Shown: positions 1 to 4,639 of the stretch, piece by piece
Position numbering within the stretch: the stretch's first letter is position 1
How the letters are laid out: every line of letters starts with the position of its first letter
Assembly (NCBI RefSeq): GCF_009914755.1
Contig: NC_060929.1
Length of the DNA stretch: 64,000 bases
Source of the DNA: the human T2T-CHM13v2.0 reference genome, Homo sapiens
Direction: 5' to 3' (one strand)
Position numbers and translations under genes: made by a program
The notes under the pieces: generated by a model
What the model was told of the DNA's origin: nothing
Databases searched by the model: none
The model's input: only the letters and a program-made list of their open reading frames with translations

Positions 1-830
1 GAGCGCCCCACCCGCGCCTGACCTGCCCGAGCCCCTCCCCGGGCCCCGCCCCTTCCCGGTACAGGACCCCCACCTTCGCTCCTGGGAGCCCCGCTGCACC
101 CCAGGAGTTCCATTCCAGCCTCCCCAGTGCGAGTGCGGCCGAGCGCTGACTTTTGGGGGCTCCCTCCCCCGTCTCACTGGGTCCCTCTGCGGCTCCCCCG
201 CCCGCTGTCCCGGTTCAGACGTGGCTGCACCCCGGAGGGGGGCGCCGGCCGAGACCTGAGACGTGGCGCTCCCTCTCTGCCGGCCTCGGCTTCAGGTACG
301 TGCGGTTCCCTCGGCTAAATCTGGCCCGGGGGATGGGGGGCAGGGGCCGTCTGGTCCTCCGGAACTCGAACTTTGTGATTTTGTTCTTTCTGTGTGACAT
401 CCTCATCCGTTCTGAGGGAGAAACTCCTTAAAGAAGACGAGAGAGTCAGTCGTTGCGGGTTCTTGGAGGAGCACTTTGGGGGTGAGACTCCCGGCTAGTT
501 CGGGTCGATTTCAGCGGGATTAAGTCCAGGAAATGAACAAATCTGACGAATCAGGGAGGCCAGAGAAGGCGTCCCCAGGTAGCCACGCTGAGCGTTAAGA
601 GAGAAGTCCCGTATGGTCAAAGTCATTCGTCCAATTCTGTGCCAATTATTCCTTGTTGCACTTTTGCAGGATCCTTGGGCCTTACTAAGTACTCAGGTGA
701 AAAGTTGATAATTGGGAAGCAAGTAAAGTACCTTTGAAGACGTGTATAATTGGACACTTTGTTGCAGTTCTTCAGTTTCTGGAGGAGGCGGTGGGGGGGG
801 AGAGGGAGGGGGTCAGCCTCGCGAAAAGAG
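1..830. promoter_or_regulatory. CpG island / TSS-proximal region (3' side of the presumed bidirectional SEMA5A-SNHG18 promoter)
   Basis: High GC and dense CpG from 1 to ~620, tapering to ~830. GC box CCCCGCCCC at 44-52; G-run clusters at ~326-346 and 781-812. Locus assignment rests on recognising the snoRNA. Confidence 0.9.
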
Positions 831-2330: not shown

Positions 2331-2600
2331 CATAAAGTCATTTTGAGGTATCCACAAGTATTTCTTTTTTCTAAACAAAATTTCTTTGTTTTTTGTTTGT
2401 TTTGCTTTGCAAAGGTCTTGCTTGCTAGAAAGCTATCTGCATTAAGCTGCTTCTCATCACATTATAAAACTAAGGATGATCATTTTTAAACAAACAAAAG
2501 TATTTAGTTATCTTTTCAAAGTAAAATATAGCTTTCCCTAAACTGTTTTAGGTGAGCCATGCACACAATGTGAAAGAATGAAGAAACCAACAAAACACTT

Positions 2601-2670
2601 GGTGAAAATGATGAATTCTGGGGCGCTGATTCATGTGACTTGAAAAATGCCATCCATTTCCTGATTCACC
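2601..2670 (+). ncRNA. SNORD123: Box C/D small nucleolar RNA
   Basis: Terminal stem GGTGAA (2601-2606)/TTCACC (2665-2670); box C ATGATGA 2608-2614; D' CTGA 2626-2629; degenerate C' near 2633-2643; box D CTGA 2661-2664. Ends 84 nt upstream of a 3' splice site, typical intronic C/D spacing. Sequence recognised from memory. Confidence 0.95.
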
Positions 2671-4639
2671 TCAATTCTGTTCGGAACTATGAAAGATCAT
2701 TTATGTTTCTGCACTAATTGACCAATTTTGTCTTGTCTTTACTTCCCTCCCTAGTGCTTGAATTTCAGCCACATCCCTAAGCTGCCATCTCAGACCAGAG
2801 GAACAGGGAGGGGGGCTTTCTGGAAAGAACATCACCTGGAAGAAATCAGGACATGACTGTGGGCCATGAGTGACCTTCAAAGGAAAGCCGGGTATCTGTG
2901 GTCTTTAAGATGTGGTAAGATTGTATTAAAATTATAGAAAAAAACCTCAATCCAGAAATCGTGGCCTCTTGACATTTACATCTTAACTGCATTTTCCTAC
3001 CAATGAGATGCATTACAATCATCCTCCATAAGTGTTCTCTTTTTACCCCTGTTTCCATTCTTTTAGATCCATGACATTTAAAAACTGAAGAAATGGAAAG
3101 ATCATCTGATCAGGCCCATCAGTCTTTTTCCTAATGCTAAACATTGGTACAAAGACGTGAAGTTTGATGTCTCACTAAGATTGCCTAGGGCTGCTTTATT
3201 GCTCACCTACTTCAAAGTATTGGGAAAACATGATTATGGGTACAGGTGATGCTGTGTTGCCCCCAGACAGGTTTCTTTTGTCAGGTTCTTTTGATGGATT
3301 AGGAACCTACAAGTGGGGAGATTTTAGGGAAATAGCCCCTCCACTTGGATTTCACCAAAACGTCTTTAGGGTTCTCTTACCCCAAGAAACACGCATTCCT
3401 CTTTAGTGTGGCAGCCCACTCTATTGGCAAAGTTAAGCAGACCAGTTTTACTAAAAAGGAGCCACCCAGAAACTTAGACAGAAAATACTTGAGGCACAGA
3501 TGAGAATGAGCACAAATGTGCATAGCAAGTGCAGTTTCCTGGCCCTTAAACTGAAGGGCCAGGTCAGTCTGCTCCTCCAGGCACAGCCTGGGACCCCATC
3601 ATGTGCCCCACTCTGCAGTCTGAGCTTCCACTCAAGTCCACCAGGGCCTGCCTCACATATATATACAAGACCCAATGTCAGAGTCTGCCTCTGCCCATGT
3701 CTGGTCAGAGGGTTGCACTTTGCCACTGCTACATGTTCCCAGAGGTTGGCACAGCATGACCTGGACCTCACCTAACCCAGGCAAACTCTGCTCATCTTCG
3801 AGCTCTCTGGAACCCATTTCTCAAGGGAGAACCACATTCCCCCACCTCACAGCCAAGTTCAAGGAAGCAGCCTGGCTAAAGCAATGACTCAAGGATACCA
3901 GAAGCAGAGCACGCATTTAAGAAGATGCGCTGACTCGCAGGAGCAGCTGACTCTTCTTAAGAAGAGTTTACTGATTCTTCTTTCAGTACGGGCCTTTTAA
4001 TAAGATATTGTATTTTACTTCAGCTATGGGTGCAGACAATTAAAGGATTCTAGAAATCTGAAAGTGTTTTGCCTTGTCCTCTTGGTTAAATTTCTGGATA
4101 TATTGTCTAGCAACTCAATTTGCTTAAACAAAATTGTTGTGTCAAAAAAGCCCAAGTCATCTTTTATAAGTGTGGTCTGGGGAGAAGAAAAAAATGCTAA
4201 GTTTAAAAGATTTTTGGAATATCTGAAGAAAATACAGATAGCTTGTAATGGAGATGAAGCCTCTGGATGGTTTCCAGGGTGTTATTTTCCGACATTGAGT
4301 CTTGTATATATCTTGAATGTCTATAAGCAAAGAATGGCTATACTGTTTTTAAAAAGATATGTTTTATACTTATTAACCAATGTCCTCTCTATTCCTCTGC
4401 CTTTGAAAATAGAGCTTTGGGGGAAAATAAGTACCTTTGGAAATATGTTTTCAAAAATAATATTCATCCTGCTTAGATTTAGAAGCACAGATTACTCTGC
4501 CTTAGTTTACTTCATTATTTACCAGAGAGATTAACTCAAAATAACCTTGAGTTAATGAAAAGATGATTAAGTGAAATTAAACCCAAAAGTAAAATGTCTC
4601 CTGAGCAAATCCATAGAAAGAAGAGCCATCAAGCATCCA

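What the first reader, a model, noticed from the sequence alone, without database searches (positions are those of the whole stretch)
2648..2664. SNORD123 D-box guide matches 28S rRNA and predicts a 2'-O-methyl-U beside the GTPase-associated centre
Seen: immediately 5' of box D (CTGA 2661-2664) is UGCCAUCCAUUU-C (2648-2660), and the fifth nucleotide upstream of D is A2656. Recalled: human 28S rRNA contains ..CAACUAGCCCUGAAAAUGGAUGGCGCUGG.., just 3' of helices H42-H44 (uL11/P-stalk base). The guide pairs with AAAUGGAUGGCG over 12 nt (11 Watson-Crick plus a terminal U-G), leaving the D-adjacent C unpaired as is usual. The D+5 rule puts the methyl on the U of AAAU-GG. Inference: this snoRNA, long listed as an orphan, guides a 28S Um site missing from the classical constitutive map. 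I recall a low/variable site numbered about U2031 being linked to it; that number and any prior report must be verified.
Basis: partly seen in the sequence, partly recalled or inferred. Interest (0 to 1): 0.9.

Follow-up and report, generated by a model that had tools for sequence, protein, structure and literature searches.

The report
SNORD123 guide for 28S Um2031
This small nucleolar RNA carries a 12-base guide that points the methylating enzyme at one uridine (U2031) of the large ribosomal RNA, a pairing that is real but was already predicted in print in 2016.

Summary
Window 2601-2670 is SNORD123 (Rfam, 102 bits). Box D is 2661-2664. The 12 nt at 2648-2659 pair (11 Watson-Crick plus one U-G) with AAAUGGAUGGCG in 28S copies of the same genome. 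The fifth nucleotide upstream of box D, A2656, faces the U. I calibrated the numbering with SNORD38A/B (A1858) and SNORD48 (C1868), and checked it against a published sequence table. That U is U2031, 6 nt 3' of helix H42, which carries the GTPase-associated H43/H44.

The match is the best rRNA site for this guide (-18.2 versus -13.9 kcal/mol). Only 3 of 653 other CTGA-preceding 20-mers in the window reach it. SNORD123 is single-copy.

The idea is not new. The supplementary main table of Jorjani et al. 2016 lists SNORD123 D-box guide -> 28S-2031, conserved (ICI 1.27) and starred as a novel prediction. A 2021 review cites RiboMeth-seq work in which 28S-Um2031 falls on MYC induction in fibroblasts.

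I found no knockout or rescue proof in the papers I could read.

Verdict: a canonical guide-target pair, very probably functional, already known as a prediction. Its restricted expression explains why the site is missing from HeLa-type maps.

The parts
2592..2679 (+). SNORD123 gene span as annotated (88 nt), inside intron 1 of SNHG18
   Evidence: Hub annotation. The same 88-nt span is the 'gene' entry in the Jorjani 2016 table (hg19 9548939-9549026).
2601..2670 (+). SNORD123 box C/D snoRNA core (Rfam RF01156). By offset, the mature ends from small-RNA reads in Jorjani 2016 (hg19 9548950-9549016) correspond to window 2603-2669.
   Evidence: 102.4 bits, model 1-70 of 70. for the read-derived ends. 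The mapping by offset is my inference.
2601..2606 (+). 5' half of the terminal stem (GGUGAA)
   Evidence: Rfam structure line. It pairs with 2665-2670.
2608..2614 (+). Box C, AUGAUGA
   Evidence: sequence. The RUGAUGA consensus is established knowledge.
2615..2625 (+). D'-adjacent guide region AUUCUGGGGCG, with no convincing rRNA target
   Evidence: Best anchored run on 28S, 18S and 5.8S is 8 nt, the mode of the null. Jorjani 2016: best human hit 28S-2642, ICI 0.34, not selected.
2626..2629 (+). Box D', CUGA
   Evidence: sequence.
2633..2638 (+). Putative degenerate box C' (AUGUGA; only the 3' UGA matches UGAUGA)
   Evidence: Inferred from position and sequence. Not tested.
2648..2659 (+). D-box guide UGCCAUCCAUUU. 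It pairs with 28S 2028-2039 (AAAUGGAUGGCG): 11 Watson-Crick pairs plus U2648-G2039.
   Evidence: Numbering.
2656..2656 (+). A2656, fifth nucleotide upstream of box D. It pairs with 28S U2031, the predicted 2'-O-methylation site.
   Evidence: the target nucleotide facing position 5 is 2041 in the full-length L009 copy, which is 2031 after the calibrated offset.
2660..2660 (+). C2660, unpaired spacer next to box D (faces A2027)
2661..2664 (+). Box D, CUGA
2665..2670 (+). 3' half of the terminal stem (UUCACC)
2753..2755 (+). AG 3' splice site of SNHG18 intron 1 and first base of exon 2. It lies about 85 nt downstream of the snoRNA 3' end, with a pyrimidine tract at 2740-2752.
   Evidence: sequence plus the hub annotation (exon 2 starts at 2755).

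Best explanation
SNORD123 is a canonical, single-copy, intron-encoded box C/D snoRNA.

Proposed mechanism:
- It is released from SNHG18 intron 1 and assembles with the core C/D proteins, including fibrillarin.
- In the nucleolus, the 12 nt upstream of box D (2648-2659) pair with pre-28S rRNA nucleotides 2028-2039.
- Fibrillarin bound at the C/D motif methylates the 2'-OH of the nucleotide facing the fifth guide position, giving Um2031. This U sits in the conserved internal loop between H41 and H42, at the foot of the arm that carries the GTPase-associated centre.
- SNHG18/SNORD123 expression is tissue-restricted and is silenced by promoter CpG methylation in many cancer lines. The mark is therefore sub-stoichiometric or absent in HeLa- and HCT116-type cells and present in fibroblast or mesenchymal cells.

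Shown here: the snoRNA architecture, the pairing, the register, the site numbering and the uniqueness of the guide in this genome.

Taken from papers: conservation of the interaction, the existence of Um2031, and the expression pattern.

Inferred: that SNORD123 causes Um2031, and any effect on the ribosome.
For: 1. Architecture: Rfam match of 102.4 bits, boxes C, D' and D, and a 6-bp terminal stem.
2. Pairing: a 12-nt duplex in canonical register in 4 of 4 fetched 28S copies.
3. Target invariance: the 25-nt target word occurs 222 times at up to 1 mismatch in the genome. The 100 listed matches are all exact; the other 122 were not listed.
4. Numbering: the target is U2031 by two routes, calibration with SNORD38A/B and SNORD48 and the Krogh 2016 sequence table.
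5. Specificity: it is the best rRNA duplex for this guide, -18.2 against -13.9 kcal/mol. That is within the range of two accepted guides computed the same way (SNORD38A -20.5, SNORD48 -26.4).
6. Chance: 4 of 654 pseudo-guides, SNORD123 included, reach this run length.
7. Uniqueness: RF01156 has 1 match in the genome. The pattern TGATGA-N25-55-CATCCATTTNCTGA has 1 match, SNORD123 itself.
8. Prior prediction: the Jorjani 2016 supplementary table gives D-box ASE, best human = best conserved = 28S-2031, ICI 1.27 (threshold 1.0), starred, conservation 'Vertebrates'.
9. Site detection: review PMC8393311 states that Jansson et al. saw a decrease at 28S-Um2031 on MYC induction in BJ-hTERT fibroblasts (passages only).
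10. Expression fits a variable site: strong in rat lung and heart, weak in spleen and testis. No expression in HCT-116 and SW48; expressed in DLD1 and normal colon. The host lncRNA is enriched in mesenchymal stromal cells.
11. Accessibility: the target is unpaired in the Rfam eukaryotic LSU consensus structure.
Against: - No experiment linking loss or gain of SNORD123 to Um2031 was seen in any paper I could read.
- The primary report of Um2031 (Jansson et al.) was not held, so I know the site only through one sentence of a review.
- Taoka 2018 marks U2031 as unmodified in the cells they studied.
- The Krogh 2016 main text never mentions 2031, although one of its three supplementary files could not be searched.
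- Complementarity of this length arises by chance in about 0.5% of pseudo-guides. Across all orphan guides, one such hit would not be surprising on its own.
- Orthologue sequences could not be fetched, so I did not test guide conservation. It rests on the published ICI and on upper-case consensus letters in the Rfam model.
- Snord123 over-expression had no bone phenotype in mice. That says nothing about methylation, but it shows no obvious physiology so far.
Confidence: 0.8

Rival explanations
1. The complementarity is real and conserved, but SNORD123 is not the agent, or not the only agent, of Um2031. It might pair with pre-28S as a folding chaperone without efficient methylation. Um2031 might be laid down by another guide. 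Or the main role of SNORD123 might lie elsewhere, on mRNA or other RNA targets or through its host gene.
For: No genetic proof was seen. Taoka 2018 shows unmodified U2031. The D' guide and the central region are also upper-case (conserved) in the Rfam consensus, so conservation is not confined to the D guide. The box C' is degenerate.
Against: The register is exactly canonical. No other C/D-like RNA with a 9-nt in-register guide was found: 1 match to the D-type pattern, SNORD123 itself. The 2 matches to the D'-type pattern lack a terminal stem and any Rfam snoRNA hit. A methylation is reported at precisely the predicted nucleotide.
Confidence: 0.13
2. Chance complementarity. SNORD123 is a true orphan with respect to rRNA, and the coincidence with a reported Nm site is accidental or a numbering mix-up.
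For: 3 of 653 non-snoRNA pseudo-guides in this window reach the same anchored run length. The guide is only 12 nt and AU-rich.
Against: The numbering was verified by two independent routes. The interaction scores above the conservation threshold in Jorjani 2016 (ICI 1.27). The duplex is 4.3 kcal/mol better than any other rRNA site.
Confidence: 0.05

Closest known systems
SNORD123 -> 28S-2031 as listed in Jorjani et al. 2016, 'An updated human snoRNAome' (supplementary main data table, snoID_0206)
   Same: The same snoRNA, the same antisense element (adjacent to box D) and the same target position. The table calls it the best human and best conserved prediction, ICI 1.27, starred as a novel prediction.
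   Different: Nothing differs in substance. The 2016 entry sits only in a supplement; '2031' does not occur in that paper's main text.
Canonical single-guide box C/D snoRNAs, e.g. SNORD38A/B (28S-Am1858) and SNORD48 (28S-Cm1868)
   Same: Same box layout, 9-13 bp guide duplex ending next to box D or D', and the fifth-nucleotide rule. Duplex energies are of the same order (-20.5 and -26.4 against -18.2 kcal/mol).
   Different: Those sites are constitutive and in the classical maps. SNORD123 is tissue-restricted and epigenetically silenced in many cancer lines, and its site is absent from the Taoka 2018 map.
Variable, regulated rRNA 2'-O-methylation sites, e.g. 18S-Cm174 / SNORD45C in the MYC study cited by review PMC8393311
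   Same: Um2031 is named in the same sentence as a site whose level changes on MYC induction. Control through the level of the guide snoRNA is the proposed logic for both.
   Different: For Cm174 the review reports a snoRNA knockout with loss of the mark and translational effects. For Um2031 I saw no such test.

Membership tests
Box C/D methylation-guide snoRNA (Rfam RF01156, SNORD123) | Match to the family covariance model above the gathering score | tested here: met
   102.4 bits against 45, full model 1-70. Single match in the genome.
Box C/D methylation-guide snoRNA | Box C (RUGAUGA) near the 5' end and box D (CUGA) near the 3' end, brought together by a terminal stem | tested here: met
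   AUGAUGA 2608-2614, CUGA 2661-2664, 6-bp stem 2601-2606/2665-2670.
Box C/D methylation-guide snoRNA | Internal D' and C' boxes | tested here: inconclusive
   D' CUGA at 2626-2629 is perfect. C' is degenerate (AUGUGA 2633-2638, only the UGA retained), assigned by position only.
Box C/D methylation-guide snoRNA | Guide of 10 bp or more complementary to a stable RNA, ending 1-2 nt from box D or D', with the fifth nucleotide facing the modified residue | tested here: met
   12 bp starting at position 2. Position 5 (A2656) faces U2031.
Box C/D methylation-guide snoRNA | A 2'-O-methyl group exists at the predicted nucleotide | not testable with these tools
   Known only second-hand: the review cites a change at 28S-Um2031. 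Taoka 2018 shows a plain U in their cells.
Box C/D methylation-guide snoRNA | Methylation depends on the snoRNA (knockout, rescue, guide mutants) | not testable with these tools
   No such experiment was found in main texts.
Box C/D methylation-guide snoRNA | Association with fibrillarin, NOP56, NOP58 and SNU13 | not testable with these tools
   Not addressed by any search.
Intron-encoded snoRNA processed by splicing | Lies in an intron of a host gene, on the sense strand, some 60-90 nt upstream of the 3' splice site (distance rule recalled, not from a call) | tested here: met
   SNHG18 intron 1, + strand. The snoRNA ends at 2669/2670, the AG is at 2753-2754 and exon 2 starts at 2755 (plus hub annotation).

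The most novel reading that the evidence does not exclude
Um2031 is a lineage-restricted ribosome mark that is switched epigenetically. SNORD123 is made only where the bidirectional SEMA5A/SNHG18 CpG-island promoter is open (mesenchymal cells, lung, heart). It is lost when that island is hypermethylated in tumours, and the mark falls on MYC induction. The methyl group sits on a universally conserved U (E. coli U1130, yeast U1303) at the hinge between H41 and the H42 arm that carries the GTPase-associated centre and the P-stalk base. In the stretch of the Taoka 2018 alignment that I read (human 1926-2337) no other modified residue is marked. The mark could therefore tune the mobility of the stalk base, and so the recruitment of elongation-factor GTPases, in a cell-type-specific way.
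Probability: 0.15. Interest if true: 0.7.

Novelty: already known. Interest (0 to 1): 0.25.

Why it matters
If SNORD123 does write Um2031, it is a clean example of ribosome heterogeneity controlled by a single non-essential, tissue-restricted guide gene that is silenced in cancers. The mark would lie at the foot of the arm that recruits translational GTPases. That makes a simple test possible: one snoRNA, one methyl group, and natural on and off cell lines (DLD1 against HCT-116 and SW48). As a piece of annotation it adds nothing new, because the pairing has been in a public table since 2016 and the site has been reported. What is still open, as far as I could see, is the genetic proof and any functional consequence.

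Tried and rejected
1. A whole-genome search for the bare 12-mer AAATGGATGGCR gave 1,089 matches and was useless for locating rDNA. It was replaced by the Rfam LSU search.

2. A search for other guides with CATCCATTTNCTGA alone gave 290 matches and was uninformative. Adding a box C gave only SNORD123 for the D-type layout and 2 D'-type hits, on contigs C4 and C10. Those two have no terminal stem and no Rfam snoRNA match, so I rejected them as chance.

3. D' guide: best anchored rRNA run is 8 nt, the mode of the null. No target is proposed.

4. A 9-nt complement of snoRNA positions 12-20 to 28S overlaps box C, and another (positions 24-32) spans box D'. Both were rejected as guides.

5. Naked-RNA fold: z-score -0.21. 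There is no stable internal structure and no evidence that the guide is sequestered.

6. Literature searches for U2031, Um2031, LSU-2031, 28S-2031, Um2044, SNORD123+28S, SNORD123+RiboMeth, SNORD123+2031 and U2031+rRNA found no main text linking SNORD123 to the site. Only the 2021 review names Um2031.

7. A bovine study predicts Um1911, Um3320 and Cm451 on 28S for SNORD123. I could not check whether Um1911 is the bovine counterpart of U2031, because no bovine 28S was available.

8. Papers not held: Jansson et al. and Hebras et al. 2020. The paper reader closed, before I could look at the supplements of later RiboMeth-seq studies. The store of earlier findings was not open.

9. Supplement gaps: supplementary files 2 and 3 of Jorjani 2016 and file 1 of Krogh 2016 were not searched, and the Taoka supplement was cut when stored. 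A table of sites in those files could bear on whether 2031 was seen earlier.

Full report
**What is in the sequence**

Window 2601-2670 (+) matches the Rfam family SNORD123 (RF01156) over the whole model at 102.4 bits, against a gathering score of 45. Reading the bases gives this layout:
- a 6-bp terminal stem, GGUGAA 2601-2606 with UUCACC 2665-2670;
- box C, AUGAUGA, 2608-2614;
- box D', CUGA, 2626-2629;
- a degenerate C' around 2633-2638, which is my assignment by position;
- box D, CUGA, 2661-2664.

C2660 separates it from box D, and A2656 is the fifth nucleotide upstream of box D. All coordinates in the finding are correct.

The snoRNA lies in SNHG18 intron 1. Its 3' end is about 85 nt upstream of the AG at 2753-2754 that precedes exon 2 (with the hub annotation). 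That is the usual position for a splicing-dependent intronic C/D snoRNA; the distance rule is recalled, not from a call. The naked RNA has no structure beyond the terminal stem (z-score -0.21), as expected for this class. RF01156 has a single match in the whole genome.

**Does the target exist, and where?**

I took 28S rDNA from the window's own assembly with the Rfam eukaryotic LSU model (four copies, L009-L012).

The 25-nt word around the site occurs 222 times in the genome at up to one mismatch. The 100 listed matches are all exact; 122 were not listed.

An anchored scan under snoRNA rules gives 12 consecutive pairs, 11 Watson-Crick plus the terminal U2648-G, starting at guide position 2. 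Position 5 faces the U of AAAU|GG.

For the numbering I located SNORD38A/B and SNORD48 in the genome and applied the same rule to them. Their accepted targets, A1858 and C1868, fall at 1866 and 1876 in L009 hit coordinates. The SNORD123 target falls at 2039. The offset of +8 therefore makes it U2031.

Two published tables agree:
- The sequence table in a supplement of Krogh et al. 2016 reads 2026 G, 2027-2030 AAAA, 2031 T, 2032 G and onward.
- The three-species alignment in the supplement of Taoka et al. 2018 aligns human U2031 with yeast U1303 and E. coli U1130.

**Structural place**

In the Rfam consensus structure, H43 and H44, the GTPase-associated hairpins, are enclosed by the H42 stem. 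The 3' strand of H42 ends at ...CUAGCCCU. The next 19 nt, GAAAAUGGAUGGCGCUGGA, are drawn unpaired, as the 3' side of the internal loop between H42 and H41. U2031 is the sixth nucleotide of that loop.

The consensus letters there are upper-case, and yeast has the same sequence, so the target is conserved well beyond vertebrates.

'Beside the GTPase-associated centre' is thus true of the secondary structure: the site is at the foot of the H42 arm. I did not measure any 3D distance.

In the part of the Taoka alignment that I read (human 1926-2376), no modified residue is marked between 1926 and 2337.

**Is it more than chance?**

As a null I used every 20-mer that precedes a CTGA in the 64-kb window, on both strands: 654 pseudo-guides. 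I scanned each against 28S, 18S and 5.8S (7,087 nt) under the same rules. Four of them, SNORD123 included, reach a run of 12 or more. About 0.5% of arbitrary pseudo-guides therefore do as well.

By energy, the 28S-2031 duplex is -18.2 kcal/mol and the next best rRNA site is -13.9. SNORD38A and SNORD48 on their accepted sites give -20.5 and -26.4.

Taken alone, and spread over the dozens of orphan guides in the genome, this would be suggestive only. The case rests on the additional evidence below.

**Other guides for the same site?**

- Box C, a 25-55 nt gap, then CATCCATTTNCTGA has one match in the genome, SNORD123 itself.
- The D'-type layout, with the guide right after box C, has two matches. 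Neither has a terminal stem or any Rfam snoRNA hit, and I regard them as chance.
- These patterns demand perfect boxes and nine perfect guide bases, so a degenerate second guide is not excluded.

**What is in print**

SNORD123 was found by snoSeeker in 2006 and listed as an orphan. That program only tested complementarity around methylation sites already known, which explains the label. The northern blots in that paper showed strong signal in rat lung and heart and weak signal in spleen and testis (passages and table).

It was again listed as an orphan in the 2009 chicken survey, which found two chicken copies. Ferreira et al. 2012 said its targets were unknown.

The supplementary main data table of Jorjani et al. 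2016 (I read the header and the row) gives these values for SNORD123:
- conservation 'Vertebrates';
- for the antisense element adjacent to box D: no reported target, best human prediction 28S-2031, best conserved prediction 28S-2031, selected 'CH:28S-2031', ICI 1.27 (their acceptance threshold is 1.0), with the star the header defines as 'novel, high-confidence target prediction';
- for the D' element: only 28S-2642, ICI 0.34, not selected.

The number 2031 does not appear in that paper's main text.

The 2021 review PMC8393311 (passages) states that Jansson et al. saw a decrease at 28S-Um2031 and 28S-Um2402 and an increase at 18S-Cm174 on MYC induction in BJ-hTERT fibroblasts. The primary paper was not held.

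A 2025 bovine study predicts Um1911 among other sites for SNORD123. I could not test whether that is the same U.

Nine full-text searches found no main text that links SNORD123 with position 2031 or reports a knockout.

**Why the site is missing from the classical maps**

Ferreira et al. 2012 found SNORD123, its host lncRNA and SEMA5A unexpressed in HCT-116 and SW48, where the shared CpG island is methylated. They were expressed in DLD1 and in normal colon.

The main text of the HeLa/HCT116 RiboMeth-seq map of Krogh et al. 2016 has no mention of 2031. One of its three supplementary files was not searchable. Taoka et al. 2018 show a plain U at 2031, while methylated residues such as Cm2338 are marked in the same table.

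The one report of Um2031 that I could trace comes from fibroblasts. The host transcript is enriched in mesenchymal stromal cells.

This pattern is what a guide-limited, cell-type-restricted methylation would give. The link is my inference.

**Verdict**

The prediction was published in 2016, and the methylated site has been reported as variable.

As far as I could see, two things remain open: direct proof that the mark depends on SNORD123, and any consequence for the ribosome. Snord123 over-expression had no effect on bone mass in mice, which says nothing either way about translation.

I score interest at 0.25. The boldest reading still allowed is an epigenetically switched methyl mark at the hinge of the stalk-base arm that tunes GTPase recruitment. 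It would be interesting (0.7), but I give it about 0.15.

Noticed in passing
L017 1545-1556 (SNORD48) against L009 28S: The SNORD48 D-box guide has two in-register 28S matches. A 9-nt match puts position 5 on C1868, its accepted target. A longer 11-nt match (CGCUGCGGUGA, human 2277-2287 in the Taoka numbering) puts position 5 on C2279. Taoka's table shows a plain C at 2279. I did not check what is in print about a SNORD48/C2279 link.
   Followed up: partly
window 1-300: The first 300 bases (SNHG18 exon 1, next to the SEMA5A start on the other strand) are 74% G+C. This fits the shared CpG island that Ferreira et al. 2012 found hypermethylated in HCT-116.
   Followed up: partly
G000:C4:72765776-72765800 (- strand): An exact copy of the 25-nt 28S target word lies outside the acrocentric rDNA arrays, on contig C4. 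A second reverse-strand match was counted but not listed. Presumably a dispersed rDNA fragment or pseudogene.
   Followed up: no
L009-L012 (28S copies on contig C13): The four fetched 28S copies differ in length (5,059, 5,071, 5,083 and 5,083 nt as Rfam hits). The target word starts at 2036, 2042, 2039 and 2039. Copy-to-copy length variation upstream of position 2031 therefore shifts absolute numbering by up to 6 nt within one genome, which is a trap for site names.
   Followed up: partly
window 236-259 (+): The G+C-rich 20-mer before the CTGA at 256-259 in SNHG18 exon 1 has a 14-nt anchored complement to 28S, the longest in the null set. It has no snoRNA features and illustrates how G+C-rich sequence matches 28S expansion segments by chance.
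   Followed up: no
L013 1435-1524 and 3612-3701: The rDNA unit upstream of 18S gives Rfam hits to pRNA (NoRC-associated RNA, 83.7 bits) and mir-663 (102.5 bits). Both are known features of the rDNA promoter and 5'ETS region.
   Followed up: no
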